Assembly (NCBI RefSeq): GCF_009914755.1
Contig: NC_060925.1
From: the human T2T-CHM13v2.0 reference genome, Homo sapiens
Strand: one strand, 5' to 3'
Length of the DNA stretch: 64,000 nucleotides
Shown here one piece after another: positions 1-22,200 of the stretch. The notes below the pieces were generated by a model. The model did not search any database and was not told the origin of the DNA. It saw nothing but the letters and a program-made list of their open reading frames with translations. The translations under genes and the position numbers were made by a program. Within the stretch, counting starts at the first letter, position 1, and every line of letters begins with the position of its first letter.

Positions 1-163
1 CTGGGTGTTCAGTGTAGAGATATGTCACAATGCCCCCATAGGCAGAGCCTAGACAAAAGTCTCATCACCTGGGTGATCAGTGCAGAGATATGTCACAAAG
101 CCCCTGTAGGCAGAGCCTATACAAGAGTTACATCACTTTGTTGATAAGTTGAGAGATGTGTCA
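1..163 (+). repeat. Beta-satellite (68-bp Sau3A/BSR) monomers, about 2.4 copies, running off the window start
   Basis: Tandem ~68-bp units of the form catcacctgggtgatcagtgcagagatatgtcacaatgcccctgtaggcagagcctagacaagagtta. Abrupt switch to GC-rich D4Z4 sequence after ...gagatgtgtca at ~163. Confidence 0.93.
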
Positions 164-773
164 TGCTGACTGTTTGCTCCCAGAGCTCTGCGGGCACCCG
201 GAAACATGCAGGGAAGGGTGGAAGACCCGAATGGTGCCTTCGCTCTCCTTGCCAGTTTCCAAACCGGCCACACTGCAGACTCCCCATGTTGCCGCACACG
301 GGAATCCATCGTCAGGCCATCACGCTGGGGAGGCACCTTCTCTCTGGGGTCTCGCTCTGGTCTCCTACATGGAAATTAACGAGAGCCACACGCCTGGGAG
401 TGTGAGACTGTCCTGGCAACGGCGACTGCCACAGGCACTGCCTCCTTCACGGAGAGAGGGCCTGGAACACTCAAGACTCCCACGGAGGTTAAGGTTTACA
501 CTCCCCTCCACCCTCCCAGGCCGGTTTCTCCCTGCTGAAGAGGCGTGGGAGCCCAGAGATCGGCTTCCATTTCCCGTGGGATTCCTGGAGAGGTCCGGAG
601 AGCCAGCCCGCGAAATGCGCCCGCCTCACCCCTTCCCCCTCACCCCCTTCCTCTTCGTGTCTCTGGCCTCACCAGCGACATCACCACGCCCTCCCCCCCC
701 ACCACCCCCAGGCCGCAGGCCTCGACGCCCTGGAACCCTTCCGGGGTGGGGTGGGCATTCCCAGGGTTCACCG

Positions 774-2223
<1,450 letters not shown>

Positions 2224-2362
2224 GACGCGGGGTTGGGACGTGGTCGGGTCGGGGCAGGGCGGTGGCCTCTCTTTCCCAGAGAACACCTGGCTGGCTATGG
2301 AGGGTTGTATCTTCCCCCGCCCCCACAACCGGGCTGACCAGCCTGGGATTCCTGCCTTCTAG

Positions 2363-2454
2363 GTCTAGGCCCAGTGAGAGGCTTCACACAGTGGAGAACA
2401 GCCATTCTTTCCTGGGCATCCTGGGGATCCCAGAGCCAGCCCAGGTACCAGCAG
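2363..2454 (+). other. Homolog of DUX4 3' UTR exon 2, containing the KpnI site
   Basis: Acceptor cctgccttctag|gtctaggc at 2362/2363 and donor cagcag|gtgggc at 2454/2455. The intron-1 donor gcggg|gttggg is preserved at 2231/2232. Confidence 0.75.
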
Positions 2455-2740
2455 GTGGGCCGCCTACTGTTCAAGTGCATGTTGCGGGGTAGCCGCCTGG
2501 GCTTTGGGAGCAGCCCGGGCAGAGATCTCATGCCTTTCCACCACCCCAACCCCGCCTGACCAACACCCCACACCCCCACCCCCCATCCACGGAAAATGCG
2601 TCCTCCCCTGGGCAGGGTGGAGACCCCCGTCCCATGAAACACTGGGCCCGCGCAGCGTCCAGGCCTGACACGCCTCCGGCGGCTCACCTCCTCTGCGCCT
2701 CTGAGCCACCGTCGTCGGCCCGCCCGTGCCCCTGCAGCCT

Positions 2741-3010
2741 CCCAGCTACCACCTTGGAGCGCCTGGCGGCAGAACGCAGACCTCTAGCTCTCTTTGCCAG
2801 CCTCCTGGCTAGACCTGCGCTCATTGCGCACCCCGGCTGATGTGCAAGGCAGCCCGCTGGCCTCTCTTTGTCCTTGTCTGTCTGTGAAATTCCGGCTGAG
2901 GCTCTCCCAACACCTTGCGATGCTCTTAAGTCAAAGCCTGGAGAATACTTACATCTCCTGGATGATCGGTTCAGAAGTATGTCACAATGCCCCCTCCCTG
3001 CAGAGCTTAG
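2741..3010 (+). other. pLAM-like region / DUX4 exon 3 homolog, merging into beta satellite, without the ATTAAA signal
   Basis: Acceptor cctggctag|acctgcgc at 2812/2813, then ccccggctga..gtgcaagg..gtgaaattc..ttacatctcctggatgat..ttcaga..atgccccctccctg as in pLAM. The hexamer position reads GTCACA (2981-2986). Confidence 0.82.
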
Positions 3011-6000
3011 AGACGATTTGCATCATTTGGGTGATCAGTGCAGAGATATATCACAAGGTCCCCTGTACAAAAAGCCTGGAAATGATTTACATCACCTCAT
3101 TGATCAGTGCATAGGTGTGTCAGAAATCCCCAGTAGGCTGAACCTAGAAAAGGGTCACATCATTTAGGTGATCAGTGTAGAGATATGTGAAAATTCCCGT
3201 GTAGACAGAGCCTAGACAAGTGTTACATCACCTAGTGATCAGTGCAGGGATAAGTCATAAATCCTCCTTTAGGAAGAGTGCAGACAAGTGTTTCCTCCCT
3301 GGGGTGATCAGTGCAGAGCTATGTCACAAATCCCCTGTAAGCAGAACCTTGACAAGGGTTACATCACCTGTTTGATCAGTGGAAATGTATATCACAAAGC
3401 CCCCTGTAGGCAAAGCTCAGACAATTGTTACATCACCTGGGTGAGCATTGGAGAGATCTGATACAATGCCCCTGTAGGCAGAGCTTAGACAAGGGTTACA
3501 TCACCTGGGTCATCAGGGCAGAGATATGTCAAAACGCTCCCGTTGGTTGAACCTAGACAGGAGTTACATCACCTGGGTGATCAGTGCAGAGATGTGTGAG
3601 AATTCCCGTGTAGGCAGAGCCTAGACAAGTGTTAAATCACCTAGGTTATCAGTGCAGGTATAAGTCATAAAGATTCCTGTAGGCAGAGCGTAGACAAGAG
3701 TTCCCTCCCTAGGGTGATCAGTGCAGAGATGTGTCACAAAGCCCCTGTAGGCAGAGCCTAGACAAGAGTTTCATCACCTGTGTGATCAGTGCAGAGATAT
3801 CTCACAATACCCCCTGTAAGCAGAGCCTAGACAAGAGTTATATCACCTGGGTGATCAGTGCAGAGATACGTCATAAATCCCACTGTAGGCAAGCCTAGAC
3901 AAGTTTTACGTCACCTCAGCGATCAGTGCAGAGATATGTCCCAATGTCCCTCTACACAGAGCTTAGACAAGTGACACATCTCTTGGGTGATCAGTGCAGA
4001 GATAAGTCACAATGCCCACGTAGACAGAGGCTAGACAAGAGTTAAATAACCCGTGTGATCCGTGCAGAGTGATGTCACAACGCCCTCTGTAGGCAGAGAC
4101 TAGAAAAGAGTTACATCAAATGGGTGATCAGTGCAGAGATATGTCACAATGCCAAATGTAGGCAGAGCATTGAGAAGAGTTGCATCACCTGGGTTATCAG
4201 TGCAGACATATGCCACAATGTCCCCTGTAGGCAGAGCATAGACAAGAGTTCCTTCCCCAGGGTGATCAGTGTAGAGATGTGTCACAAAGCCCCTGTAGGC
4301 AGAGCCTAGACATGAGTTTCATCACTTGGTTGATCAGTTCAGAGATGTATCACAATGTCCATGTAGGCAGATCTCAGACAAGAGTCCATCACCTGGGTGA
4401 TCAGTGCAGAGTTATGTACCAATGTCCCCTGTAGGCAGTGCCTAGACAAGAGTTGCATCACCTCAGAGATCAGTGCATAGATATGTCACAAAGCCTTCTG
4501 TAGGCAAAGCCCATACAAAGCTTATATCACCTAGGTGATCAGTGCAGTGATATGTCACAAAAATCCCTGTAGACAGAGCCTAGAAAAGAGGTACATCACC
4601 TGGGTGATCAGTGCAGATATTTGACACAATGCCCCCATAGACAGAGCCTAGACAAGACTTCCATCACCTGGGTGATCAGTGCAGAGGTATGTCACAAACC
4701 CCTTCTAGGCAGAGTATAGAGAAGAGTCGCATCACCTGGGTGATCAGTGCAGAGATGTTTCACAATGCCCCTGTAGGCAGAGAGTGGACAAGTGTTATAT
4801 AACCTAGGTGAGCTGTGCAGAGCTATGTCAAAACGCCCCTGTAGGAAGAGCCTAGATAAATGTTACATCACCTGGGTGATCAGTGCAGAGATACGTCACA
4901 ATACCCCCTGTAGGTGGAGCCTAGACAAGAGTTACTTCACCTGGGTGATCTGTACAGACATATGTCACAAAGACCCTGTAGGCCGAGCCTAGACAAGTGT
5001 TACATCTCTTGGGTGATCAGTGCAACGATATGTCACAAAGCACCCTGTAGACAAATACCAGAAAATTGTTACATCACCTGGGTGATCAGTGGAGATATCT
5101 TTCACAATTCCCCTTTTGGCGCAGCTTAGACAAGCGTTACATCATATGAGTGATCAGTGCTGAGATATGTCATTATGCCCCCATAGGCAGATCCAAGACA
5201 AGAGTCCATCACCTGGGTGATCAGTGCAGAAATATGCCGCAATGCCACCAGTAGGCAGATATAGACAAGAGTTACATCACCTGCATGATCAATGCAGAGA
5301 TATGTCACAATGCTCCTGTAGGCAGAGCCTAGACAAGAGTCCCATCACCTGGGTGATCAGTGCAGAGTTATATCACAATGCCCCATTTTGGCAGAGCCTA
5401 GACAAGGATTACATCACCTGGGTGATCAGTGCAGAGATATATCACAATGCCACTGTAGGTAGAGCCTAGACAAGAGATACATGACCTATATTATCAGTGC
5501 AGAGATACATAGCAAACCCCTTGTAGGCAGAGCTTTGACAAGTGGTACATCACCTGGGTGATCATTGCAGGGGTATGTCACAAAGCACCGTGTAGGCGGA
5601 TCCTAGACAAGAGATACATCACCTGGGTGATCAGTGCAGAGATGTGTCACAAGCCCCCTGTAGGCAGAGCCTAGACAAAGGTTATATCACCTGTGTGATC
5701 AGTGCAGTGATATGTCACAATGCCATGTAGCCCGAGCTTAGAGAAAAGTTACAACACGTGAGAGATCAGTGCAGAGATATGTCACAATGCCCCCAGTAGG
5801 CAGAGCCCAGACAACAGTTGGATCACCTTGGGATCAGTGCAGAGATATGTCTCAACGCCCCTGTGGGCACAGCCTAGAGAAGAATTACATCACCTCGGTT
5901 AACAGTGCAGAGATATGTCAAAATGCCCCTGTAGGCAGAGCCTACACAAGTGTTACATCACTTACGTTATCAGTGCAGAGATATGTTACAATATCCTCTG

Positions 6001-6790
6001 TAAGCAGAACCTAGACAACAGTTACATCACCTGGGTGATCAGTGTAGACATATGTGACAAGGCCCCTTTAAACAGAGCCTAGACAATAGTTACATCAGCT
6101 GAGTGATCAGTACAGAGATCTGTCACAATGCCACTTTAGGCAGAGCTTAGACTAGAGTTACATCACCTGGGTGATCAGTGCAGAGATATGTCACAATGCC
6201 CCCATGGGCAGATCCAAGACAAGAGTCCATCACCTGGGTGATCAATGCAGAAATATGTGACAATGCCCCCAATAGGCAGAGCCTAGAGAAGAGTCCCATC
6301 ACCTCGGTGATCAGTGCAGGGTTATGCCACAAAACCCCCTGTAGGCAGAGCCTAGACAAGACTTAGATCACCTGGTTGATCAGTAAAGAGATATTTCACA
6401 ATGCCTCTGTAGACAATGTGTAACCAAGAGTTACATCAAGTAGATGATCAGTGCAGAGATATGTCACTGGGCCTTCTATAGGTAGAGCCTGGGCAAGAGT
6501 TACATCATCTCAATGATCAATGTAGTGATATGTCACTATGCCCCAGAATTCACAGCCTAGTCAAGCGTTACATCACCTGGGTGATCAGTGCAGGGATATG
6601 TCACAAACACCCCATATACAGAGCCTAGACAAGAGTCCCAACACCTGTGTGATCAGTGCAGAAATATGTCATGATGCCCCCTAGGCAGATCCAACACAAG
6701 AGTTACATAACCTGGGTGATCAGTGAAGAGATATGTCACAATGCCACTGTAGGCAGAGCCTAGACAAAAGTCCTATCACCTGGGTGATCG
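2930..6790 (+). repeat. Beta-satellite (68-bp) array, about 57 diverged monomers
   Basis: Continuous tandem ~68-bp units with a GATC (Sau3A) core in cctgggtgatcagtgcagag, in the same orientation as the array at 1-163. Confidence 0.96.
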
Positions 6791-9700
6791 TGTGTGACAG
6801 ATGGAGACCCTGTTGAAATAAAGGAGTGGAATGGAAGGGATTGGAATGGAATGGAATGGATAGGAGTGGAGTGAAGTGGGATTGAGTGGAGTGGAGTGGA
6901 GTGGAGTGCATTGGAATGGAATGGAATGGAATGGTGAAATTATGGGTTGAGATTGTGCCACTGCACACTATCCTGGGTGACAGAGTGAGATACTGTCAAA
7001 AGAAAGTACTGGAATGGAATGGAGTGGAATGGAATGGAATGGAGTGGAATGGAATGTAATGGAATTGAGAGAAGTAGAATGGAGTGGAGCAGAAAGGAGT
7101 GGAATGGGAAGGAAAGAAAAGGACAGGAGTGGACTGGACTGGGGTGGAGTGGAGTGGAATGGATTGGAGTGGAGTGGAGTGGATTGGAATTTAATGGAGT
7201 AGAATGCAATGGAATGGTGAAATGAAATGTGAGCTGAGATTCTGCCACTGTGCTCCAGGCTGGGTGACAGAGTGAGATACTCTCGAAAGAAAGGAATGGA
7301 ATTGAATGCAGTGGAATGGAATGGCATGGTTTGGAGTGGAGTGGAGTGGAGCGGAGTGGAGTGGAGTGAAGTGGAGTAGAGTGCAATCGAAAGGAATGGA
7401 AAAAGATGGAATGGAATGGAATGAAGAGGAGTGGAGTGGGGTGGAGTGGAGTGCAGTGGTATGGAGCGGAATGGAATGGGATGGATTGGAATAGAGTGGA
7501 GTGGAGTGCAGTGGAGTGGAGAGGGCTGGAATGGAGTGGAATGGGATCGGGTGTAATGGAATGTAGTGCAGTGCAGGGGAGTGGAGTGGAACAGAGTGGA
7601 ATGGAATGGAATTGAATGGAATGGAATAGAATGGAAAGGACTGGAATGGAATGGAATGCAATGGAATGCAATGGAATAGAATGCAAAGCAATGGAAAGAT
7701 GACATGTAACGTGAGCTGAGATTGTGCCACTGCACTCCAGCCAGGGTGACACAGTGATATCCTGTTGAAAGAAATGAATGGAATGCAACGGAGTGGAATG
7801 GAGTGGAGTTGAGTGGAATGGAAAGGGAAGGAGTGGAACGGAATGGAGTGTAGTGGGGTGGAGTGAAATAGAGTGGAATGGAATAGGATGGAATGGAATG
7901 CAATGGAATGGTGAAAAGAAATGTCAGCTGAGACTGTGCCACTGCACTCCAGCCTTTGTGACATAGTGAGATCCTGTGGAAAGAAATGAATGGAATGGAA
8001 TGGAGCGGAATGGAATGCAGTGGAGTGGAGTGGAGAGGAGTGGAGTGGAGTGGAGAGGAATGGAGTGGAGTGGAGTGAAATGGAATTGAGTGGAGTGGAA
8101 TGGAGTGGAGTAGAGTGGAATGGAATGGAGTGGAGTGGAGAGGAATGGAGTGTCATGCAGTGGAATGCAGTGGAGTGGAATGGAGTGGCATGGAGTGGAA
8201 TGCAGTGGAGTGGAGTGGAATGGAGACGAGTGGACTGGAGTGAAGTAGAGTGGAATGGAATGGAGTGGAGTGGAATGGATTGACATGGATTGGAATGGAG
8301 TGGAGTGGACTGGAGTGGAATGGAATGAAATGGTGAAAATAAATGTGTGACACAGGGAGATCCTGTTGAAAGAAATGAGTGGAGTAGAAGGGATTGGAAT
8401 GGAATAGAATGGAATTGATTGGAGTAGAGTGGAATGGAATTGACTGGAGTGGAGTGGAGTGCAGTGGAATGGAATGGAATGGAGTGGAATGGTGAAATGA
8501 AATGTGAGCTGAGATCGTGCCACTGCATACCAGCCTGGTTGATAGAGTGAGATCCTGTCAAAAGAAAGGAATGGAATGGAATGGAGTGGAATGGAATGGA
8601 TTGGAGTGGAGTGGAGGGGAGTGGAGTGGAAAGGAATGGAAGGGAATGGGATGGAATGGAAAGGACTGGAATGGACTGGAATGGAGTGGAGTGGAGGGGA
8701 ACGTACTGGAGTGGAGTGGTGTGGAATAGAAAGGAAGAGAATGGAATGGAATGGTGAAATGTAATATGAGCTGAGATTGTGCCACCACGCTCCAGGCTGG
8801 GTGACAGAGTGAGATACTCTCGAAAGAAAGGAAAGGAATGGAATGCAGTGTAATGGAATGGAATGGAGTGGACTGGAGAGGAGTGGAGTGGAGTGAAGTG
8901 GAGTGGAGTGGAATGGAGAGTAATGGAATGAGATGGAATGGAATGGAATGAAGAGGAATAGAGTGGGGTGGAGTGGAGTGCAGTCGAATGGAGCGGAATG
9001 GAATGGGATGGAGTGGAATGGAGTGGAGTGGAGTGCAGTGGAGTGGAGACGAGTGGAATAGAGTGGAATGGAATCAGATGAAATGGAATGTAGAGGAGTG
9101 GAGAGGAGTGGAGTCGAACGGAGTGGAATGGAATGGAATGGAATGGAAAGGAATGGAATGCAATTGAATGCAAAGCAATGGAAAGTTGACATGTAAGGTG
9201 AGCTGAGATAGTGTCACTGCACTCCACCCTGGGTGACACGGTGATATCCTGTGGAAAAGAAGCTATGGAATGCAATGGAGTGAAATGGTATGGAACGGAA
9301 TGGAATGGAGTTGAGTGGAGTGGAGTGGAGTTTAGTGGAATGTTGTCGAATGGAATGGGATGGAGTGGAATGGAATGCAGTGGAGTGGAGTGGAGTGAAA
9401 TAGAGAGGAATGGAATGGGATTGAATGGAATGCAAAGGAATGGTGAAAAGAAATGTGAACTAAGATTGTGCCACTGCACTGCAGCCTCTGTGACAGAGTG
9501 AGATCCTTTGGAAAGAAAGGAAAGAAATGGTATGGAATGGAATGGAGTGGAGTGGAGTGGCGTGGAATGGAATGGAATGGAATGGAGTGGAGTGGAATGG
9601 AATGGAATGGACTGGAATGGAATGAAATGGAAAGCAATGGAATGCAATGGAATAGAATGCAGTGAAATAGAAAGTTGACATGTAATGTGAACAGAGATTG

Positions 9701-12700
9701 TGCCACTGCACTCCAGCCTGGTGACACAGTGATATCCTGTTGAAAGAAAGGAATGGAATGCAATGGAGTGAAATGGAATGGAATGGAGTGGAGAGGAGTG
9801 GAGTGGAGTGGATTAAAGTGGAGTGGAGTGGAATGCAATGGATTGGAATAGGGTGGAGAGGAATGGAATGGAGTGGAATGGAATGGTATGGAACGGAGCA
9901 GAGTGGAGTGGAATGGAGAGGAATGGAGTGGAGTGGAGTGGAATGCAATCAAATGGAATGTAATGGAAAGGAATGGAATGGAGTGGAATTGAATGAAATG
10001 GAATGGAGTGGAGTGGAATGGAGTGGAGTGGAGAGGAATGGGGTGGAGAGGACTGGAATGGAGTGGAGTGGAGTGGAATGGAATGGAGGGAATGGAATGG
10101 CATAGATTGGAATGGAGTGGAAAAGAGTGGAATGGAATGTAGTGGAATGAAATGGAGTGGAGTGCACTGGAGTAGAGTGGAATGGAATGCAGTGGAGTGG
10201 AATGGAATGTAGTGTAATAGAATGGAATGGAATGGAACGGAATGGAATGGAATGGAATGAAATGGTGAAAAGAAATGTGTGCTGAGACTGTGCCAATGCA
10301 CTACAGCCTGTGTGACAGAGTGAGATCCTGTCGAAAGAAAGTCTTGGAATTGAAGGGATTGGAATGGAATGAATTGGACTGGAGTGGAGTCGAATTGAGT
10401 GGAGTGGAGTGCAGTGGAGTGCAGTGGAATAGAACGGAATGGAATGGAATGCTGAAGTGAAATGTGAGATGAGACTGTGCCACTGCACACCAGCCTGGGT
10501 GACAGAGTGAGATTCTGTCAAAAGAAAGGAATGGAAAGGAATGGAGTGGAATGGAATGGAATGGAGTGGAGTGGAGTAGAGTGGAGTGGAAAGGAGTGGA
10601 ATGGCGTGGGATGGAATGGAGTGTAGTGGAGTGGAGTGGACTGGAATGGAGTGGAGTGGAGTGGAGTTGAAAGGAGTGGAATGGCGTGGGATGGAATGGA
10701 GTGTAGTGGAGTGGACTGGAATGGAGTGGAGTGGAGTGGAATGGATTGGAGTGGAGTGGAGAAGAGTGGAGTGGAGTGGAGAAGAGTGGAGTGAAGTGGA
10801 ATGGAATGGAATGGAATGGAAACGTGAAATGAAATGTGACCCGAGATTGTGTCACTGTGCTCACAGGCTGGGTGGCAGAGTGAGATTCTTTCAAAAGAAA
10901 GGAATAGAATTTAATGCAGTGGAATGGAATGGAGTGGACTGCAGTGGAATGGAGTGGGGTGAAGTGGAGTAGACTGGAATGGGATGGAATGGAATGGAAT
11001 GAAATGGAGATGAGTGGGGTGGAGGGGATTGCAGTGGAATGGAGCAGATTGGAATGGGAAGGAGTGGAATGGAGTGGAGTGCAGTGGAGAGGAGAGGAGT
11101 GGAATGGAGTGGAATGGAATCGGATGTAATGGAATTAAGTGGAGTGGAGTGGAGTCGAACGGAGTGGTACTGAATGGAATTGAATGGAATGGAATGGAAT
11201 GATGAAATGAAATGTGATCTAAGATTGTGCCACTGAACTCCAGTCTGGTTGATAGAGTGAGATCCAGTAGAAATAAAGGAACGGAATGGAATGGAGAAGA
11301 ATGGAATGGAATGGAGTGGAGTGCAGTGGAATAGAGTAGAGTGGAATGGAGAGGACTGGAATGGAGAGGAATGGAATGGCATGGAATGGAATGGAATGGA
11401 GTGGAGTGGAGGGGAGTAGAGTGGAATGGAGTGGAGTGGAATGGAGTGGACTGGAATGGAGTGGAGTGGAGAGGAGTAGAGTGGAATGGAGTGGAGTGGA
11501 ATGGAATGGAAAGGAGTGGAGTGGAATGGAATGGCATGGAATGGAGTGGAATGGAATGGAATGGAGTGGAGTGGAGAGGAATAGAGTTGAGTGGAGTAGA
11601 GCGGAATGGAGTGGAGTAGAATGGAATGGAAAGGAGTGGAATGGAATGGAATGGAATGGAATGGAGTGCAATGGAACGGAATGGAGTGGAATGGAATGGA
11701 GTGGGGTGGAGTGGAGTGCAGTGGAGTGGAATGGAGTGGAATGGAGTGAAATGCAGTGGAGTGGAATGGGGTGGAATGGAGTGGAGTCCAATGGAATGGG
11801 ATGGAGTGGAATGGAACGGAGTGGAGTGGAACGGAATGGAGTGGAGTGGAGTGGAATGGAATAGAGTGGAATGGAATGCGATGGAATGGAATACTATGGA
11901 ATGGTGAAAAGAAATGTGAGCTGAAATTGTGACACTGCACTCCAGTTTTGTGACAGAGTGAAATCCTCTGGAAAGAAAGAATGGAATAGAATGGAATGGA
12001 GTGGAATGTAATGCAGTGGAGGGGAGTGGAGTGGAGAAGAATGTAATGCAGTGGAGGGGAGTGGAGTGGAGTGGAGAGGAGTGGAGTGGAATGGAGTGTA
12101 GTGGAGGGGAGTGGCATTGAGTGGAGTGGAGTGGAATAGAGTGGAATGGAATGGAGTGGAGTGGAGTGGAGTGGAGTGGCAAGGAGTGGAATGGAGTGGA
12201 ATGGATTGGAGTGGAATGGAGAGGAGTGGAGTGGAATGGAGTAGAGTGGAATGGAATGGAGTGGAGTGGAGTGGAATGGAGTGGCATGGAGTGGAATGGA
12301 GTGGAGTGGAGGGGAATGGAGAGGAGTGGAGTGGAGAGGAGTGCAGTGGAAGGGATTGGAATGGAAAGGAATAGAGTGGAATGGAGTGGAATCAAATGGT
12401 GAAAAGAAATGTGTGCTGAGATTGTGCCACTGTGCTACAGCCTGTGTGACACAGGAAGATCCTGTCAAAAGAAAGGAGTGGAATGTTAGGGATTGGAATG
12501 GAATGGAAAAGAATGGATTGGAGTGGAGTGGAATGGAATTGAGTGGAGTGGAGTGGAGTGCAGTGGAATGGTGAAATGAAATATGAGCTGAGATTGTGCC
12601 ACTGCACACCAGCCTGGGTGACAGAGTGAGACCCCGTCAAAACAAAGGAATAGAATGGAGTGGAATGGAATGGAGTGGATTGGAGGGAAGTGGAGTGGAA

Positions 12701-15700
12701 AGGAGTGGAATGGAAAGGAGTGGAATGGAATGGACGGGAATGGAGAGGAGTGGAATGCATTGGAGTGGAGTGGAGTTGAATCGAATGGAATGGAATAGAA
12801 TGGAAAGGAATGGTGAAATGAAATGTGTGCTGAGATTGTGCCACTACACTCCGGGCTGGGTGACAGAGTGAGATACTCTCGAAAGAAGGGAGTGGAATGG
12901 AATGCAGTGGAGTGGAGTGAGTGGAGTGGAGTGGAGTGGAATGGAGTGAACTGGAGAGGAGTGGACTGGAGAGAAGTGGAGTGGAGTGGAATGGAGGGGA
13001 ATGGAATGGGATGGAATGGAATGGAATGAAGTGGAGTGGAGTGGGGTGGCGGGAAGTGCAGTAGAATGGAGGGGAATGGATTGGAATGGAGAGGAATGGA
13101 GTGGAGTGGAGTGTAGTTGAATGGAGAGGAGTAGAATGTAGTGGAATGGAATCAGATGTAATGGAATGTAGAGGAGTGGAGTGGAGTCGAACGGAGTGGA
13201 ATGGAAGGGAAAGGAATGGAATGGAAAGGATGTAATGGAAAGGAATGGAATGCAATTGAATGCAATGGAATAGAATGCAATGCAATGGAAAGTTGACATG
13301 TAATATGAGCTGAGATAGTGCCACTGCACTCAAGCCTGGGTGACACAGTGATATACAGTGGAAAGGAAGCTATGGAATGCCATGGAGTGAAATGTTATGG
13401 AATGGAATGGAATGGATTTGAGTGGAGTGGAATGGAGTTTAGTTCAATGGAATCGACTGGAATGGGATGGAGTGGAATGGAGTGGAGTGGAGTGAAATAG
13501 AGGGGAATGGAATGGGATGGAATGGAACGTAATTAAATGGTGAAAAGAAATGTGAGCTGAGATTGTGCCACAGCACTCCAGCCCCTGTGACAGAGAGAGA
13601 TCCTTTGGAAAGAAAGGGAAGGAATGGTATGGAATGGAATAGAATGGAATGGAAAGGAATGGAATGGAGTGGAGTGGAGTTTAGAGGAGTGGAGTGGAGA
13701 GGAGTGGAGTGGAATGGATTGGAGTGGAATAGAATGGAGTGGAGTGGAATGGAATGGAATAGAGTGGAATGGAATTGAATGGAGTGGAATGGAATGGAAT
13801 GGAGTGGGATAGAATGCAATGGAAATGAATGGAATGGAATGAAACGGGATGGAAAGGAATGAAATGGAGTGGAATGGAATCGTGAAAAGAAATGTGTGCT
13901 GAGATTGTGCCACTGCGCTACACCCTGTGTGAGAGAGGGAGATCTTGTCAAAAGAAAGGAGTGGAATGGAAGGGATTGGAATTGCACGGAATGGAATAGG
14001 TTGGAGTGGAGTGGAGTGGAATTCAGTGGATTGGAGTGGAGTGCAGTGGAATGGAAAGGAATGGAATGGTGAAATGAAAAATGGGGTGAGATTGTGCCAC
14101 TGCACTCCTGCCTGGGTGACAGAGTGAGATCCTGTCAAACGAAAGGAATGCAATCTAATGGAGTGCAATGGAATGGAATGGAGTGGAGTAGAGTGGATTG
14201 GAGAGGAAAGGAGTGCAATGGAATGGGATGGAAGGGAAAGGAGTGGAGTGGAATGGAATGGAGTGGAGTGAAGTGAATGGATTGCAATGGAGTGGAGTAG
14301 AGTAGAGCAGAATGGAACCGAATGGAACGGAATTGAATGGAATGGTGAAATGAAATGTCAGCTGAGATTGTGCCACTGCTCTCCAGGCTGGGTGACGGAG
14401 TGAGATACACTCGAAAGAAAGGAACGGAATGGAATGCAGTGGAATGGAATGGAATGGAATGGAGTGGACTGGAGTGGAGTGGAGTGAAGTAGAGTGGAGT
14501 GGAATGGAGAGGAATGGAATGGGATGGAATGGAATTGAATGAAGTGGAGTGGAGTGGGGTGGAGGGGAGTCCAGTGGAATGGAGCGGAATGGAATGGGAT
14601 GGAGTGGAATGGAGTGGTTTAGAGAGAAGGGGAGTGGAGAGGAGTGGAATGGAGTGGAATGGAATTGGATGTGATGTAATGTAGTAGAGTGGAGTGGAGT
14701 GGAATGGGATGGAATGTTGTGGAGTGGAGTGGAGTGGAAAGGAATAGAATGGAATGGAATGGAATGCAATAGAATGCAATGGAATTCAATGGAATGCAAT
14801 GGAATAGAATGCAATGAAATGGAAAGTTGTCATGTAATGTGAGCAGGGACTGTGCCACTGCTCTCCAGCCTGAGTGACACACTGACATAGTGTCGAAAGA
14901 AAGGAATGGAATGCAATGGAGTGAAATGGAATGGAGTGGAAAGGAGTGCAGTGAAGTGGAGTGGAGTGGAGCAGAGTGGAGTGGACTGCAATGGAATGGA
15001 AAGGAGTGGAGTGGAATGGAATGGTAAGGAATGGAATGGTAAGGAATTGAGTGGAGTGTAATGGAAGGGAGAGGAAACGAGTGGAGTGGAGTAGAATGCA
15101 ATGGAATGGAATGGAATGGAAGGGAAAGGAACGGAGTGGAAGGGAAAGGAATGGAGTGGAATGGAATGAAATGGAATGGAGTGGAGTGGAATGGAGTGGA
15201 GTGGAGTGGAATGGAGTGGAGAGGAGTGGAGTGGAGTGGAATGGAATGGAGTGGAATGAAATGGAATGGAGTGGAATGGAGTGGAAAAGAGTGGAAAAGA
15301 GTGGAATGGAATGCGGTGGAATGAAATGGAGTGGAGTGGACTGGAGTAGAGTGAAAAGGAATGCAGTGGAATGGAATGAATTGTAATGGAATGGAATGGA
15401 ATGGAATGAAATGGAATGGAATGAAATGGTGAAAAGGAATGTGTGCTGAGATTGTGCCACGTGCTACAGCCTGTGTGACAGAGGGAGATCCTGTCGAAAG
15501 AAAGGAGTGGAATGGAAGGGATTGGAATGGAATGGAATGGAATCGATTGGAGTGGAGTGGAGTAGAATTCAGTGGAGTGGAGTAGAGTGCAGTGGAACAG
15601 AATGGAATGGAATGAAATGGTGAAGTAAAATATGAGATGAGATTCTGCCACTGCACACAAGCCTTGGTGACAGAGTGAGATCCTGTCAAAAGAAAGGAAT

Positions 15701-16290
15701 GGAAAGGAAAGGAGTGGAATGGAATGGAGTGGGGAGGATTGGTGTGGAGTGGAAAGGAGTGGAATGAAATGGGATGGAATGGAAAGGAGTGGAGTGGAAT
15801 GGACTGGAGTGGAGTGGAGTGGAATGGATTGGAGTGGAGTGGAGTGGAGTAGAGTGGAATAGAGTGGAATGGAATGCAATGGAATGATGAAATGAAATGT
15901 GAGCTGAGATTGTGCCACTGCGCTGCAGGCTGGGTGACAGAGTGAGATACTTTCGAAAGAAAGGAATAGAAGAGAATGCAGGGAAATGGAATGGAATTGA
16001 ATGGAGTGGACTGAAGTGGAGAGGAGTGGGGTGAAGTAGAGTTGACTGGAATGGAGAAGCATGCAATGAGATGGAATGGAATTGAATGGAATGGAATGAA
16101 GTGGAGATGAGTGGGGTGGAGAAGATTGCAGTGGAATGGAGCAGAATAGAATGGGATGGACTGGAATGGAGCGCTGTGGAGTGCAGTGCAGAGGAGAGGA
16201 GTGGAATGGCATGGAATGGAGTTGGATATAATGGAATTTAGTGTGGTGGAGTGGAGTAAAGTAGAACGGAGTGGTATGGAATGGAATGGA
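6791..16290 (+). repeat. Divergent HSat3 (GGAAT/GGAGT)n composite with about 28 interspersed Alu 3'-end fragments
   Basis: Pentamer runs are interrupted every ~150-700 bp by aatggtgaaa(t/a)gaaatgtgagctgagattgtgccactgcactccagcctgggtgacagagtgagatcctgtcaaaagaaagg or close variants. Confidence 0.92.
12583..12645 (+). mobile_element. Representative Alu right-end fragment (~60 bp, non-autonomous, amplified with the satellite)
   Basis: tgagctgagattgtgccactgcacaccagcctgggtgacagagtgagaccccgtcaaaa aligns with the recalled Alu 3' end GTGAGCCGAGATCGCGCCACTGCACTCCAGCCTGGGCGACAGAGCGAGAC..GTCTC-A(n), mostly differing by CpG to TpG. Other copies start near 6791, 6945, 7228, 7710, 7921, 8343, 8502, 8766, 9198, 9453, 9685, 10275, 10462, 10834, 11212, 11914, 12409, 12823, 13304, 13550, 13892, 14081, 14355, 14837, 15439, 15630 and 15897. 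Confidence 0.88.
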
Positions 16291-19200
16291 ATAGAAGAGA
16301 ATGGATTCGAATGGAATGGACTGGAATGGAATGGAATGGAATGGAATGGACTCAAATGGAATGGAATCGAATGAAATGGAATCTAATGAAACGTAATCGA
16401 ATGGAATGGACTTGAATTGAATGGAACGGAATGGAACGGTCTGGAATGCAATGGAATCACATGGAATAGAATCGAGTAGAATGGAATGGACTCGAATGGA
16501 AAGGAATGGAAATGAAAGGAATAGAAATGGAATGGACTTGAATGGAATGGACTGGAATGGAATGCAATCGAATGGAATGGAATTGAACAGAATGGAATCA
16601 AATGGAATGGAATGGAATCGAATGGAATGGACAGGAATGGAATGGTCCTGAAAGGAAAGGAATGGAGTGGAAAAGAATGGAATGGAATGGAGTGGAATAG
16701 AATGGAATAGAATTTAATGGAATGGAACGGACTCGAATGAAATGGCCTGGAGTGGAATGGAATCGAATGGAATGGAATCGAATGGAATGGAATCGAATGG
16801 AATGGAATGGAATGGATTGGAATGGAAAAGAATCGAATCAAATCAAATGGAATGGAATCGAATGGAAGGGAAGGGAATGGAATGGAATATAATGGAATGG
16901 ATTCAAATGGAATGGAATGGAATTGAATGTAACACAATGGAATGGAATAGAATCTAATGGCATGGAATGGAAAGGAATGGAATAGATTTGAAAGGAATGG
17001 AATGGAATGGACTCAAAAGGAATGGACTTAAATGGCATGGAATGGAGTGGAATGGTATGGAATGGAATGGAATGGAATGGAATGGAATGGAATGGAATGG
17101 AATGGATTTGAACGGAATGGAATGGAAAGGAAAGGAATGGAATGGACTGGAATGGAATGGACTGGAATGAATTGGAATGGAATGGAATGGAATGGAATGG
17201 AATGGAATGGAATGGAATGAAATGGAATGGATTTGAACGGAATGGAATGGAAAGGAAAGGAATGGAATGGACTGGAAAGGAATGGACTGGAATGAATTGG
17301 AATTGAATGGAATGGAATTGATTGGAGTGGAATGCAATGGAATGGACTGGAATGGAATGGACTCTAATGGAATGCAGTGTAATAGAACGGTCCCAAATGG
17401 AATCTAATCGAATGGAATGGAATCAAATGGAATGGAAAGTAATAGAATGGAATCGAATGGAATGGACTCGAATGAAATGTACTGGAATGGAAAGGACTCG
17501 AATGGAATGGACTGAAATGGAACAGATTCAAAGGGAATGGAATTGAATGGAGTGGAATGAAACGGAACGGACTGGAATGGAATGGAATGGAATGGACTCT
17601 AATGGAATGGAGTGTAATAGAACAGTCCCAAATGGAATCTAATCGAATGGAATGGAATCGAATGGAATGGAAAGGAATAGAATGGAATCGAATGGAATGG
17701 ACTCGAATGAAATGTACTGGAATGGAATGGACTCGAATGGAATGGACTGAAATGGAACAGATTCAAAGGGAATGGAATTGAATGGAAGGTACTCGAATGG
17801 AATAAAATGGAATGGAATGGAATGGATACGAATAGAATGGATTCTAATAGAATGGACTGAAGTGGAATGGATTCAACTGGATGGACTCAAATGGCATGTA
17901 ATCGAACGGAATGGAATCGAACGGGATGGAATCGAATGGAATAGAATCGAATGGAAAGGAATCGAATGGAATGGACTGGAAGGAAATGGAATTGATTAGA
18001 ATGTACTCAAATGGAAAGGACTCGAAAGGAAAGGAATTGAATAGAATGGAATAGAATGGAATGAAATCTAACTTAATGGAATGGAATCGAATGGAATGCA
18101 ATCAAATGGAATGCAATGGAATGGAATGAAATGGAATGGAATCAAAAGGAATGGAATCGAGTGGAAGTATTGAATGGAATGGAATCTAATGGAATGAAAT
18201 GGTCTCGAATGGAATCCACTGGAATAGAATGGACTCGAATAGAACAGACTAAAAAGGAAAGAAATCGAAAGGAATGGAATCGATGGCAATAGAACCGAAT
18301 GGTATGGAATAGAAAGGAATGCAATCGAATGGAATGGAATGGTATGGAATGGAATGGAATCGAATTGAATGGAATGTAATTGAGTGGAATGGAGATAAAT
18401 GGCAAAGAATCTAATGGAATGTAATCTAATGGAATGGAATCGGACAGAATGGAATGGAATGGAATGGAATAGAATGGAATGAAATGGAATGGACCCAAAC
18501 GTAATGGACTGGAATTGAGTGGACTCGAATGGAATGGATTGGAATGGAAAAAACTCGAATGGAATGCACTAGAATGGAATGGAATCTAATGTAATGGAAT
18601 CAAATGGAATGGAATTCAATAGAATGGAATCGAATGGAATAGACTGGAATGGAATCGACTCGAATGGATTGGAATCAAATATAATAGAATGTAATGTAAT
18701 GTAATATAATGGAAAAGAATGGAAGCAAATGGAATGAACTCGAATGGAATGGACTGGAATTGAATGGACTCGAATGAAATGGACTTGAACGGAATGGAAT
18801 CTAGTGGAATTGAATTAAATTGAATGGAATCGATTGTAATGGACTGGAAAGGAATGGACTGGAAAGGAATTGAATGGAATGGAATGGAACGGAACGGAAT
18901 GGAATCCAAGGGAATGGAGTGGAAGAGAATCGAATGTAACAGAATCGAATGGAATGAAATCAAATGAAAAGGGATCGAATGGAATGGAATCAAATGGAGT
19001 GGAATCTAATTAAATGGAATGGAATCGAATGGAATGGAATCAAATGGAATGGAATCAAATTGAAAGGAGTCGAACGGCACCAAATGGAATCGAATGGATT
19101 GCGTTGAAGTGGAGTGGAGTGTAATAGACTGGAATGGAATGGGGTGGAATGGAATTGAATGTAGAGGAGGGGAGTGGAGTTCAATGGAGTCAAATATAAT

Positions 19201-22200
19201 GGAAGGGGAAGGAGTGGAATTGAACGGAATGGAGTGTAATGGAGTGGAGTGGAATGTAATGCAATGGAATGGAATGGAATGGAATGGAATGGAATAGAAT
19301 GGAATGGAGTTAATGGATTCCAAAGGAGTGGAATGGAAGGAAATGGAGTGGATGGAATGGAGTTTAGTGCAGTGGAGTGGAATGGAATGAAATGGAATGG
19401 ACTTCAAAGCACTGGAGCCGAATGAAATGGAATTGAATGCAATGGAATGGAACGGAAAGGAATGGACTCCAAAGGACAGGAGTCGAATGGAATGGAATTG
19501 AATGCAATGTAATGGAATGGAATGTAATGGATTGGAATGGAATGGAATTGAATTGAATGCAATTAAATGGAATGGAAAGGAACGCAATGGAATGGAATGG
19601 AGTGGAATGCAATGGAATCAAATTGAATGGAATGGAATCGAGTAGAATGTAAATGAATTGAATGGAATGGAATGAAATGGAATGGAATCGAATGGAATGG
19701 AATGCAATGAAATGCAATAGAAAGGACTGGAATGGAATGGAATCGAATCAAGTTTAATGGAATCAATTAGAATGGGACTGAATGGAATGGACTGGACTGG
19801 AATGGAATGGAGTGAAACGGACTCGAATGGAATGGAATGGAATGGGCTCGAATGGATTGGACCCGAATGGAATGGAATCGAATGCAATGGAATGCAATGG
19901 AACAGAATAGAATGGAATGGAATGGAATGGACTCTAATGTAATGGAATGGAATGCTATGGACTCGAATAGAATGAATTCGAATGGAATGTACTCGAAAGG
20001 AATGGACACGAACGGAATGCAATCGAATGGAATGGAATCTAATAGAAAGGAATTGAATGAAATGGACTGGAAGGGAATGGTTTCGCATGGAATGGAATGG
20101 AAGAGAATGGAATGGATTCGAATCGAATCAAATGGAATGGACTGAAATAGAATGGACTCGAATGGAATGGACTCCAATGGAATGGACTTGAAAGGAATGC
20201 AATTGAATGGAATGGAATCAAATGGAATGGATTCGAAGGGAATGAAATGCAATCAAAAGGAATGGAATCAAACGGAGTGGAATGGAATGCAATGGAGTCG
20301 AATGTAAAGGACTGTAATGGAAAGGACTGGAATCAAATGGACTCACATGGAATGGAGTCAAATGGAATGGAATCAAATAGAATAAAATGGAATGGAATGG
20401 AATGAAATCGAATGGAAAGGAATATAATTGAATATAAGGGACTGGAATGGAATGTACTTGAATGAAATGGACTTGAATGAAAAGGATTTGAATGGAATGG
20501 ATTCGAATGGATTGGAATTAAACGAAATGGTCTCGAATGGAATGCAATCGAGTAGGATGGACTCGAATGGGATGGAATCTTATGGAATGGAGTGCAATGG
20601 AATGGACTCGAAAGAATGGACTCAAATGGAATGGATTTGAATGCAATGAAATGGAATGGAATCGTAAATAATGGAATGGACTCGATTGTAATGGATTGTA
20701 TTGGAATGCACTAGAATGGAATGGACTCGAATGGAATGGAACAAAATGGAATGGATAGGATTGGAATGTACTAGAATGTAAATGACTAGAAGGGAATGGA
20801 CTTGAATGGAATTGACTCGAATGGAACACAATCGGATGGAATGGAATGCAATGGAAAGGAATGGAGTGGAATGGAATGGACTGTAATCGAATGGACTTGA
20901 AAGGAAGGGACTCGAATGGAATGGACTCGAATGGAATGGAATCGAATGGAATGGAATCAAAAGGAATGGACTGGAATGCAATAGAATCGAATGGAATGGA
21001 CTCGATTGGAATGGAATGGAATGGAATGGAATGGACTCAAAAGGAATGGAATAAAATGGAATGCAATCAAATGGAATAGAATGGAATGGAATGGAATGCA
21101 ATGGAATGAAATGACATGGACTCGATGGAATGGACTAGAATGGAGTGGAATGTACTCACATTAATGGACTGGAATGGAATGGACTCAAATGGAATGGAGT
21201 CGAATGGAATAGAATCAAATGGAATGGAATCCAATGGAATGGAATCACAATGAATGGTAAGGACGGGAATGGACTCAAATGGAAGGGAATCGAATGGAAT
21301 GGAATGGACTGAAGTGGAATGGAATGGACTCGAAATGGATGGACTGGAATGGAACCGTCTCCAATGAAATAGACTCGTATGGATTGGAATCAAATGGAAT
21401 AGAGTCAAATGGAATGGACTAGAACGGAATGTAATAGAATAGAATGGAATCAAAAGGAATGGAATAGAGTGGAATGGAACGAATTTAAAGGACTTGAATG
21501 GAACAGTCTCGAATAGAATGGAATCAAATGGAATGGAAAGGAATGGAATGGAATGGACTCGAATGGCAGGGAAAGGCAAGGATTGGAATCAAACGGAATG
21601 GAATCGAATGGAATAGAATCAGATGGAATGAAGTGCAATGGAATGGAATTAATACGAATTTATTGGACTGGAATGGAATGGAATCACGTAGAATGGAATG
21701 GAAGGAATGGACTCAAATGTAATAGACTTGAATGGAATGGACTCGAACGGAATGGAATGGAATGGATTCGAATATAATAGAATGAAATGGCACAGACTTG
21801 AAGGGAATGGACTCGAATGGAATGGAAAGGAAAGGAAAGGAAAGGAAAGGAATGGAAAGGAATGGAGTAGAATGGAATGGAATGGAATCGAATGTAATGG
21901 ACTGGAAGGGAATGGAATCGAACTCAATGGACTGGAATGCAATGGACTCGTATGGAATGGACTTGAATGGAATGAACTCAAACAGAATGGACTCGAATGG
22001 AATGCAATCGATTGGAAAGGAATCAAATGGAATGCAATCGATTAGAATGTAATCTATCAGACTCGAAAGTAACGGACTCCTTTGGAATGGCCCCGAATAC
22101 AATGCACTTGAATAGAATGGATTCAAATGGAATGGAGTCGAATGGGATGGAATCGAATGGAATGGACAGGAACGGAATGGACACGAATGGAATGGACTGG

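What the first reader, a model, noticed from the sequence alone, without database searches (positions are those of the whole stretch)
6791..16290. Alu-fragment/HSat3 composite satellite with an ordered five-type higher-order cycle
Seen: about 28 copies of the same ~60-bp Alu end fall into types A (ctacagcctgtgtgaca..ggagatcctgt), B (cacaccagcctgggtgacagagtgagatcctgtcaaaag), C (ccaggctgggtgacagagtgagatactctcgaaag), D (preceded by gaaagttgacatgtaa, with gtgacacagtgatatcctgt) and E (cctctgtgacagagtgagatcctttggaaag). The order is ABCDE (6791-7985), ABCDE+D (8343-9750), ABC-x-E (10275-11980), ABCDE (12409-13617), ABCD (13892-14904) and ABC (15439-15964). C-to-C spacing is about 1540, 2070, 1990, 1530 and 1540 bp. 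The layout resembles conserved repeats separated by elastic pentamer spacers. Inference: two-tier amplification, first of [Alu end + pentamers], then of a ~1.5-kb five-mer. This is the most structured unexplained element in the window. Whether the higher-order cycle is already described cannot be judged without a search.
Basis: partly seen in the sequence, partly recalled or inferred. Interest (0 to 1): 0.8.

Follow-up and report, generated by a model that had tools for sequence, protein, structure and literature searches.

The report
Old Alu-end/HSat3 higher-order satellite relic
This is a decayed satellite block whose roughly 1.5-kb repeat unit holds five versions of one Alu tail-end between GGAAT/GGAGT pentamers; it is real, but it is one copy of a block shared with many acrocentric and pericentromeric sites, and the link between this satellite and Alu fragments is already published.

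Summary
Window 6791-16290 carries 28 same-strand copies of a ~78-bp element (26 full, 2 truncated) and there are none elsewhere in the window. The element is an Alu 3' end (~63 bp) with a short (GAAAT)-like leader. Every full copy shares the same breakpoints, so it entered once and was amplified. The spacers are also type-specific, so this is a true higher-order (nested) repeat and the spacers are not elastic filler.

The array is old. Units within the block are 73-83% alike, whereas the whole block, including its beta-satellite junction, is 94-95% alike to chr21:6.01 Mb. One unit is 97% alike to chr14:5.42 Mb. The same irregular type order recurs at nine other loci on chr3, 4, 13, 14, 15, 21 and 22. 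The A-E cycle also holds in non-collinear arrays on chr16 and Y.

The leader/Alu junction has 2,255 near-matches genome-wide. T2T papers already report HSat3 mixed with Alu fragments. I found no description of the five-type cycle in the papers I could read.

A side result is a chr15q minisatellite of [Alu end + (GAAAT)n] starting at a full Alu. It shares the breakpoint and may be progenitor-like.

The parts
2935..6789 (+). 68-bp beta-satellite array abutting the block. The junction is part of the shared duplicon.
   Evidence: TRF gives period 68 and 56.5 copies. Window 5500-6792 is 95-96.5% alike to chr13, 14, 15 and 3 loci, and is contiguous across the junction with chr21.
6791..16290 (+). 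Alu-end/GGAAT-GGAGT composite satellite block: six higher-order units, the last one partial.
   Evidence: GGAAT is 24.9 and GGAGT 20.8 per 100 pentamer slots, with GC 0.472. The next zone has GC 0.383 and GGAGT 1.8.
6791..8329 (+). Unit 1: A(truncated at the beta-satellite junction)-B-C-D-E
8330..10262 (+). Unit 2: A(internal deletion)-B-C-D-E-D'
   Evidence: D' (9673) groups with the D at 14825 (89/75).
10263..12396 (+).
12397..13879 (+). Unit 4: A-B-C-D-E
   Evidence: It is 97% alike to chr14:5423853-5425315.
13880..15426 (+). Unit 5: A-B-C-D'
15427..16290 (+). Unit 6 (partial): A-B-C, followed by the transition to Alu-free HSat3
6791..6822 (+). Fragment 1, type A, 5'-truncated at the beta-satellite junction
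6932..7005 (+). Fragment 2, type B
7215..7292 (+). Fragment 3, type C
7700..7774 (+). Fragment 4, type D
7909..7986 (+). Fragment 5, type E
8330..8377 (+). Fragment 6, type A, with an internal deletion of the Alu-derived 5' half
   Evidence: An A copy is also not detected at this position in five collinear loci.
8490..8567 (+). Fragment 7, type B
8752..8829 (+). Fragment 8, type C
9187..9261 (+). Fragment 9, type D
9441..9518 (+). Fragment 10, type E
9676..9749 (+). Fragment 11, type D' (followed by a 590-bp monomer, then A)
10263..10340 (+). Fragment 12, type A
10450..10527 (+). Fragment 13, type B
10824..10900 (+). Fragment 14, type C (diverged)
11200..11277 (+).
11902..11978 (+). Fragment 16, type E
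12397..12474 (+). Fragment 17, type A
12569..12646 (+). Fragment 18, type B
   Evidence: The local alignment ends at 12631; the alignment carries on.
12811..12887 (+). Fragment 19, type C
13294..13368 (+). Fragment 20, type D
13538..13615 (+). Fragment 21, type E
13882..13957 (+). Fragment 22, type A
14067..14144 (+). Fragment 23, type B
14343..14420 (+). Fragment 24, type C
14832..14902 (+). Fragment 25, type D' (followed by a 602-bp monomer, then A)
15427..15503 (+). Fragment 26, type A
15618..15695 (+). Fragment 27, type B
15885..15962 (+). Fragment 28, type C

Best explanation
The block is a relic of a higher-order (nested) tandem repeat belonging to an HSat3-like GGAAT/GGAGT satellite. 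Each sub-unit of that satellite contains the last ~63 bp of one Alu plus a short (GAAAT)-like remnant of an Alu tail.

Proposed history, with each step marked as shown or inferred:

1. Shown: one Alu 3' end became part of a short tandem unit. All copies share the same breakpoints, the same strand and the same CpG-decayed variants.
2. Inferred, by unequal crossing-over: the sub-units diverged into five types, A-E, each with its own spacer, and a ~1.5-kb A-B-C-D-E block was amplified. That the types and their spacers are distinct and cyclic is shown; the mechanism is inferred.
3. Partly shown: unequal exchange between sub-units produced variant units, such as an extra D', a B' in place of D, and loss of D-E. 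The array then stopped being homogenised and decayed to 73-83% identity between units.
4. Shown: the decayed array, together with its beta-satellite junction and the flanking Alu-free HSat3, was copied as a segment among acrocentric short arms and several pericentromeres. The chr1 block is one such copy.

I expect no sequence-specific function. It behaves as neutral heterochromatic satellite DNA. The ordered pattern records an amplification history and does not point to a working device.
For: Alu identity. The non-pentamer part aligns to the 3' end of 10 dispersed elements within one 10-kb chr19 stretch, most of them followed directly by an A-rich tail.

Single origin.
- 26 of 26 full copies are on the + strand with the same leader and the same 3' junction.
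- The window copies and the chr15q copies form one clade (94/91), separate from 12 ordinary Alu ends.

Higher-order structure.
- The five types are clades.
- 19 of 25 successions are cyclic, against a shuffled mean of 5.3.
- Spacer ends are type-specific, with 0 of 3000 shuffles reaching the difference.
- Rare 18-mers taken from spacers only: 714 are shared within a type and 1181 between types, although same-type pairs are only 61 of 378.

Age. The best unit-to-unit HSPs are 72.6-83.3% identical.

Copied block.
- chr21:6.01 Mb is collinear with window 5500-17992 at 93.8-95.4% and covers 9500 of 9500 bases of the block.
- Loci on chr13, 14, 15, 4, 22, 10 and 3 cover 1380-7867 of the 9500 bases at 87% identity or more.
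- Unit 4 is 97% alike to chr14:5.42 Mb. Same-position units in paralogs are 87-97% alike; other units are 69-81%.
- The irregular type string (…BCDE BCDED ABC B E ABCDE ABCD ABC) recurs at nine other loci on chr3, 4, 13, 14, 15, 21 and 22.

Family-wide cycle.
- In arrays that are not collinear with the window, cyclic successions are 19 of 34 on chr16 and 15 of 24 on chrY, with 0 of 2000 shuffles reaching either.
- Type-specific flanks are conserved on chr7, chr16 and chrY.

Abundance.
- A C-type 32-mer has 168 matches at up to 2 mismatches.
- The junction 33-mer has 2,255 matches at up to 3 mismatches.
- The reversed controls gave 0 matches in both searches.
Against: - Background identity between any two pentamer stretches is already ~72-76%. 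The spacer homology signal is therefore modest (0.80 against 0.75-0.76) and rests on shuffle tests.
- Type labels for copies on other chromosomes were assigned by similarity to the window copies. Their clustering by type is partly circular. Only the order test and the flank conservation are independent.
- The chr7 array does not follow the five-type cycle: 8 of 25 cyclic successions, with 272 of 2000 shuffles as high. It shows a C-C-D pattern instead.
- No transcription, chromatin or population data could be examined, so 'no function' is an assumption.
- Only 40 of 1469 candidates and 11 of 9754 candidates were scored, so closer paralogs or a large homogeneous array may exist that I did not see.
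Confidence: 0.85

Rival explanations
1. The fragments are independent Alu insertions, or independent truncations of them, into a pre-existing HSat3 array.
For: Alu elements are abundant and do insert into satellites. [quoted passage not shown]
Against: - All 26 full copies share the same 5' breakpoint, the same 3' junction and the same strand, and none has its own poly(A) or flanking duplication.
- They share derived changes that 12 ordinary Alu ends lack, forming a clade with 94/91 support.
- They follow a cyclic order.
Confidence: 0.02
2. The block is a chr1-specific array that is actively homogenised, that is, a young higher-order repeat formed in place.
For: The order is regular and the ~1.54-kb spacing occurs three times.
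Against: - Units are only 73-83% alike.
- The same irregular order, the same truncated A copies and the same beta-satellite junction occur on other chromosomes at 87-97% identity.
Confidence: 0.03
3. The fragments are kept because they act as functional elements within pericentromeric heterochromatin, for example as a small-RNA source, a protein-binding site, or a spacing or boundary element.
For: - The fragment core and the type-specific flanks are recognisable across many chromosomes.
- The block sits at a beta-satellite/HSat3 boundary.
Against: - Divergence between copies (end branches 0.01-0.15 per site) looks like neutral decay.
- Truncated and internally deleted copies persist.
- chr7 copies lack the leader.
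- There was no Rfam match at E up to 10.
- No expression or binding data could be examined.
Confidence: 0.07
4. The whole family grew from an Alu-tail minisatellite. A [Alu 3' end + (GAAAT)n] array like the one on chr15q was the seed, and the GGAAT/GGAGT spacers arose later. They arose either from the tail repeat itself or after the seed landed in HSat3. This concerns origin and is compatible with the best explanation.
For: - chr15:28.64 Mb holds a full-length Alu followed by ~24 tandem [Alu end + (GAAAT)n] units set in non-satellite DNA.
- These units have the same 5' breakpoint and the same derived variants as the chr1 fragments.
- A 92.5%-identical paralog at chr15:25.88 Mb has the same Alu with a plain poly(A) tail and no array.
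- The satellite copies and the chr15q copies form one clade, and the chr15q C-like units group with window type C at 91/77.
Against: - Homology between the two chr15 paralogs stops exactly at the Alu 3' end.
- That Alu's last 57 nt are identical to two array units, yet differ by several substitutions from the paralog's Alu. The Alu could therefore be a recombinant joined to a pre-existing array.
- No satellite locus examined has GAAAT-rich spacers: 1.3-4.7 per 100 slots, against 36.5 on chr15q.
- The T2T-Y preprint derives the fragments from PAR1 AluY.
Confidence: 0.35

Closest known systems
HSat3 blocks intermingled with Alu fragments on chrY and the acrocentric short arms (T2T-Y preprint 10.1101/2022.12.01.518724; passages read). 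Also the general statement in the T2T centromere preprint 10.1101/2021.07.12.452052 that HSat3 units often include fragments of ancient transposable elements (passages read).
   Same: The material appears to be the same: Alu fragments inside HSat3 on the acrocentrics and Y. My junction matches fall mostly there, with 74 of 95 exact matches on chr13, 14, 15, 21 and 22 and 10 on Y. Their remarks that there is 'no local homogenization' and 'no clustering by chromosome' agree.
   Different: The passages I read do not mention a five-type ordered cycle, type-specific spacers, the chr1 copy or a chr15q minisatellite. They derive the fragments from PAR1 AluY, which I did not test. I could not see their supplements or figures.
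HSat1B (DYZ2), whose 2.47-kb unit contains an Alu-derived part (named; Frommer 1984 appears there only as a citation).
   Same: Both are composite satellites in which a fixed piece of an Alu is part of every repeat unit.
   Different: HSat1B is AT-rich, has one larger Alu-derived sub-unit per unit, and is highly homogenised on Y. Here a ~63-bp Alu end occurs five times per unit among GGAAT/GGAGT pentamers, and the array has decayed.
Acrocentric satellite III subfamilies with kilobase higher-order units, such as the 1.37-kb GGAAT/GGAGT unit of chr14 and chr22 (Choo et al. 1990) and the subfamilies of Bandyopadhyay et al. 2001. I know both only from reference lists and from recall; the texts are not held.
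   Same: GGAAT/GGAGT pentamers, kilobase-scale higher-order periodicity, and acrocentric location.
   Different: I could not compare sequences or check whether those clones contain the Alu end. The unit length here is ~1.5-2.1 kb, not 1.37 kb.
Nested tandem repeats (NTRs) of HSat2 and HSat3, as defined in the T2T centromere preprint
   Same: Both have a longer repeat unit built on a simple pentamer background, with sub-units of unequal length.
   Different: Here the sub-units are delimited by a recognisable transposon-derived marker, so the unit can be read as an ordered five-mer, much like an alpha-satellite higher-order repeat.
WaluSat (Hoyt et al. preprint 10.1101/2021.07.12.451456; passages read)
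   Same: Both are satellites linked to an Alu that spread by segmental duplication to the acrocentric short arms.
   Different: The WaluSat repeating unit is a 64-nt non-Alu sequence lying beside an AluSx3. Here the Alu end itself is the repeated element.

Membership tests
Human satellite 3 (HSat3) | Built from diverged (GGAAT)n / (CATTC)n pentamers | tested here: met
   TRF reports period 5 across 7010-63986. Within the block, GGAAT is 24.9 and GGAGT 20.8 per 100 pentamer slots.
Human satellite 3 (HSat3) | Pericentromeric or acrocentric short-arm location | tested here: met
   The window is chr1:128.59 Mb next to beta satellite (hub note). Relatives lie on acrocentric short arms and at pericentromeres.
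Human satellite 3 (HSat3) | Assignment to one of the 14 published subfamilies by its subfamily-specific 24-mer (Table 1 of PMC4022460) | tested here: inconclusive
   12 of the 14 24-mers were tested; HSat3A3 and A6 were left out. There are 0 exact hits anywhere in the window. In the block there is one hit each for A2 and A4 at 1 mismatch, and at up to 2 mismatches 4 hits for B5, 4 for A2 and 5 for A4. One 24-mer per subfamily is too thin a test.
Higher-order / nested tandem repeat | Distinct sub-unit types recurring in a fixed cyclic order | tested here: met
   Five clades. 19 of 25 successions are cyclic, with 0 of 2000 shuffles reaching that.
Higher-order / nested tandem repeat | Same-position sub-units, spacers included, closer to each other than to their neighbours | tested here: met
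   identity 0.80 against 0.75-0.76, with 0 of 3000 shuffles reaching the difference.
Higher-order / nested tandem repeat | High identity between successive higher-order units, as in actively homogenised arrays (criterion recalled from alpha-satellite practice) | tested here: not met
   Units are 72.6-83.3% alike, so this is a decayed relic and not an active array.
Composite satellite with a transposon fragment in the unit (HSat1B-like) | The same transposon-derived segment, with the same breakpoints, in every unit | tested here: met
Independent Alu retrotranspositions | Own target-site duplications, own poly(A) tail, variable truncation and orientation | tested here: not met
   The breakpoints are uniform, all copies are on one strand, and none has its own tail.
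WaluSat | A 64-nt non-Alu monomer adjacent to an AluSx3 | not testable with these tools
   No WaluSat sequence was available. By its description, the repeated element there is not Alu-derived, unlike here.

The most novel reading that the evidence does not exclude
The HSat3-associated Alu fragments number at least ~2,000 junction copies on the acrocentrics, Y and several pericentromeres. They may all descend from one Alu-tail minisatellite, with a near-ancestral form surviving on chr15q: a full Alu, a (GAAAT)n tail and ~24 tandem Alu-end units.

Under this reading, the fragments' phylogeny is structured by position in an ancient five-type higher-order unit. That would explain why published trees show no clustering by chromosome. 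It would be a case of a satellite sub-family born from an Alu tail, with a surviving intermediate.
Probability: 0.3. Interest if true: 0.55.

Novelty: new member of a known kind. Interest (0 to 1): 0.3.

Why it matters
As it stands, the finding matters little for function. It is a decayed satellite relic, and the HSat3-Alu association is already published.

It has some value as a marker. Each sub-unit carries a typed Alu-derived tag, so the irregular type string works as a barcode. That barcode shows which pericentromeric and acrocentric blocks are copies of one another; for example, chr1 matches chr21 and chr14 at 94-97%. It also gives a simple reason why published trees of these fragments do not sort by chromosome: they sort by position in the unit.

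If the chr15q array proves to be ancestral, it would document a stepwise birth of a satellite sub-family from an Alu tail.

Tried and rejected
- A simple offset self-identity profile showed only the 5-bp ladder. Indels between units hide the ~1.5-kb period, so I switched to typed fragments, rare k-mers and BLAST.
- Semi-global spacer alignment gave a weak contrast (0.847 against 0.815), because short pentamer stretches align anywhere. I replaced it with fixed 90-nt ends and label shuffles.
- Rfam scan of 6700-16400 at E up to 10 gave 0 matches, so there is no known structured RNA family there.
- A search of the genome with the 7SL/SRP family returned no usable answer and was not repeated. I established Alu identity instead from a chr19 stretch.
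- Subfamily 24-mers from PMC4022460 gave no exact hit, so the subfamily is left open.
- Papers not held: PMC9233505, PMC332295, PMC1682629 and PMC310467.
- Literature searches that found no description of the five-type cycle. These cover only open-access text; figures and the bioRxiv supplements could not be seen.
- WaluSat was considered and set aside on its description.
- No structure, complex or protein tools were used, because nothing here is coding.
Full report
**What is in the window**

Window 2935-6789 is a 68-bp beta-satellite array of 56.5 copies. From 6791 the sequence switches to G-rich pentamers. TRF reports period 5 across 7010-63986, and GC skew jumps to about +0.75.

Between 6791 and about 16290 the pentamers are roughly half GGAAT and half GGAGT: 24.9 and 20.8 per 100 pentamer slots, with GC 0.472. 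From 16291 to 56000 GGAGT almost disappears (1.8) and GC falls to 0.383. From 56001 to 64000 GGAGT returns (15.0).

**Checking the observation**

I scanned the window by local alignment with one copy as probe. It found 26 full copies of a ~78-bp non-pentamer element, all on the + strand and all between 6932 and 15962. It found none on the - strand and none elsewhere in the window.

One abuts the beta satellite at 6791. The other, at 8330-8377, has an internal deletion.

**What the element is**

Its core aligns to the 3' end of 10 dispersed elements within a single 10-kb chr19 stretch. Most of these matches are followed directly by an A-rich tail, which is the signature of Alu 3' ends. About 63 bp are Alu-derived. 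Upstream lies a ~14-nt leader (…GTGAAATGAAATGT). Downstream lies AAAGAAAG and then pentamers. There was no Rfam match.

**Types and order**

The labels need the minimum of 5 changes, against a shuffled mean of 18.0, and 0 of 200 shuffles were as low.

Each is followed by a long 590-602-bp monomer and then by A.

The units therefore read:
- Unit 1: A-B-C-D-E
- Unit 2: A-B-C-D-E-D'
- Unit 3: A-B-C-B'-E
- Unit 4: A-B-C-D-E
- Unit 5: A-B-C-D'
- Unit 6: A-B-C (partial)

When each copy is typed against the other copies, 19 of 25 successions are cyclic. The shuffled mean is 5.3, and 0 of 2000 shuffles reached 19.

**The spacers are part of the unit**

- Monomer lengths are type-specific.
- The 90 nt after a fragment are 0.799 identical within a type and 0.757 between types. 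The 90 nt before a fragment are 0.805 and 0.745. In both cases 0 of 3000 label shuffles reached the difference.
- Rare 18-mers taken from spacers only are shared 714 times within types and 1181 times between types, although same-type pairs make up only 61 of 378 pairs.

The contrast is modest, because any two pentamer stretches already align at ~72-76%.

**Age, and copies elsewhere**

The best unit-to-unit alignments within the block are 72.6-83.3% identical. The window's own assembly could be searched.

- A C-type 86-mer has 94-100% matches on chr3, 4, 10, 13, 14, 15, 16, 21, 22 and Y. All 30 loci fetched around these matches show recognisable A-E stretches.
- chr21:6.01 Mb (- strand) is collinear with window 5500-17992 at 93.8-95.4%. 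It runs across the beta-satellite junction and covers 9500 of 9500 bases of the block.
- Loci on chr13, 14, 15, 4, 22, 10 and 3 cover 1380-7867 of the 9500 bases at 87% identity or more. The chr16, chr7 and chrY arrays have no such stretch.
- Unit 4 is 97% identical to chr14:5423853-5425315. Same-position units in other paralogs are 87-91% identical, and other units 69-81% (only 11 of 9754 candidates were scored).
- The irregular type string of the window recurs almost letter for letter at nine other loci on chr3, 4, 13, 14, 15, 21 and 22. This includes the failure to detect the two truncated A copies in five of those loci.

So the variant units and the junction predate the spread between chromosomes. 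The chr1 block is a copied relic and not a locally evolving array.

**The family as a whole**

In arrays that are not collinear with the window, the cycle still holds. On chr16, 19 of 34 successions are cyclic. On chrY, 15 of 24 are. In both cases 0 of 2000 shuffles reached the observed count.

chr7 instead shows a C-C-D pattern, with 8 of 25 cyclic successions and 272 of 2000 shuffles as high. Type-specific flanks are conserved on chr7, 16 and Y: the D leader …gttgacatgtaatg, and the A trailer ggagtggaatggaagggattgg.

In a tree of 112 fragments from chr1, 7, 16 and Y, chromosome labels need 44 changes, of which chr1 accounts for 21 among its 26 rows. Type labels need 9, but those labels were assigned by similarity, so that figure is partly circular.

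Abundance:
- A C-specific 32-mer has 168 matches at up to 2 mismatches.
- The leader/Alu junction 33-mer has 2,255 matches at up to 3 mismatches.
- The reversed controls gave 0 matches in both searches.
- Of the 95 exact junction matches, 74 lie on chr13, 14, 15, 21 and 22, and 10 on Y (my count from the rows).

**Origin lead**

Five exact junction matches lie on the chr15 long arm at 28.64 Mb. That locus (L052) holds a full-length Alu, 81% identical to a chr19 Alu over 246 aligned nt. The Alu has a (GAAAT)n tail and is followed by ~24 tandem units of [Alu 3' end + (GAAAT)n]. TRF periods are 91-141, with a 232-242-bp dimer.

The array sits in non-satellite DNA and contains no GGAAT or GGAGT. 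Its 5' breakpoint (…GAAATGT|GAGCTGAGATTGTGCC) and its CpG-decayed variants are those of the chr1 fragments. The chr1 'leader' is therefore best read as a remnant of an Alu-tail (GAAAT)n repeat.

The upstream flank has one paralog, at chr15:25.88 Mb (92.5% identity). It carries the same Alu with a plain poly(A) tail and no array.

Satellite and chr15q fragments form one clade (94/91), separate from 12 ordinary Alu ends. The chr15q C-like units group with window type C (91/77).

Evidence against a simple founder reading:
- Homology between the two chr15 paralogs stops exactly at the Alu's 3' end.
- That Alu's last 57 nt are identical to two array units.
- No satellite locus examined has GAAAT-rich spacers.

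An Alu-Alu recombinant joined to a pre-existing array is therefore equally possible.

**What is in print**

[quoted passage not shown] It points to its figure of this chr1 region and defines nested tandem repeats (passages read).
[quoted passage not shown] It reports no local homogenisation and no clustering by subgroup or chromosome, and derives the fragments from PAR1 AluY (passages read).
- WaluSat is a different element.
- Eight full-text searches found no description of a five-type ordered unit.
- The classical clone papers (Choo 1990; Bandyopadhyay 2001) are not held, and I could not see figures or bioRxiv supplements. These may well contain it.
- Subfamily assignment by the published 24-mers was inconclusive, with 0 exact hits for the 12 of 14 tested.

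**Verdict**

The structure is a decayed higher-order (nested) repeat of a multi-chromosome HSat3/Alu-end family. The chr1 block is one segmental copy of it.

It is a new member of a known kind, or at most a newly spelled-out unit structure. I expect no function. The chr15q minisatellite is the most interesting loose end.

Noticed in passing
L052 = own genome chr15:28637500-28642499 (array at about L052 1131-4218); paralog in L053 = chr15:25873500-25878499: On the chr15 long arm, a full-length Alu with a (GAAAT)n tail is followed by ~24 tandem [Alu 3' end + (GAAAT)n] units set in non-satellite DNA. The breakpoint is the same as in the chr1 fragments. A 92.5%-identical paralog has the same Alu with a plain poly(A) tail and no array, and the homology stops at the Alu's end.
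   Followed up: partly
window 16291-56000: The adjoining Alu-free HSat3 is a different flavour. It has GGAAT 35.4, CGAAT 6.9, GGACT 5.8 and GGAGT 1.8 per 100 slots. In the two stretches tested (16291-26000 and 30000-40000), self-identity is strongest at offsets of 15, 30 and 45 bp. None of the 12 published subfamily 24-mers tested matches exactly.
   Followed up: partly
window 56001-64000: A second GGAGT-rich zone (GGAGT 15.0 per 100 slots, GC 0.432, GC skew 0.81-0.88) with no Alu-end fragments.
   Followed up: no
window 1-2934: A short beta-satellite piece (1-163), followed by a GC-rich stretch (GC 0.64 in 1-2000) upstream of the main beta-satellite array. Its identity was not examined.
   Followed up: no
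own genome chr22:5.96-6.01 Mb (L042, L043; hits listed): C-type hits recur four times at ~12.6-kb spacing. This suggests that part of the block sits inside a larger tandem super-repeat on the chr22 short arm.
   Followed up: no
own genome chr7:57.73 Mb (L045, L046): A related array has a C-C-D pattern instead of the five-type cycle. Its C copies lack the GAAAT leader.
   Followed up: partly
window 42398-42588: TRF reports a 98-bp period (1.9 copies, 78% matches) inside the HSat3. It was not examined.
   Followed up: no
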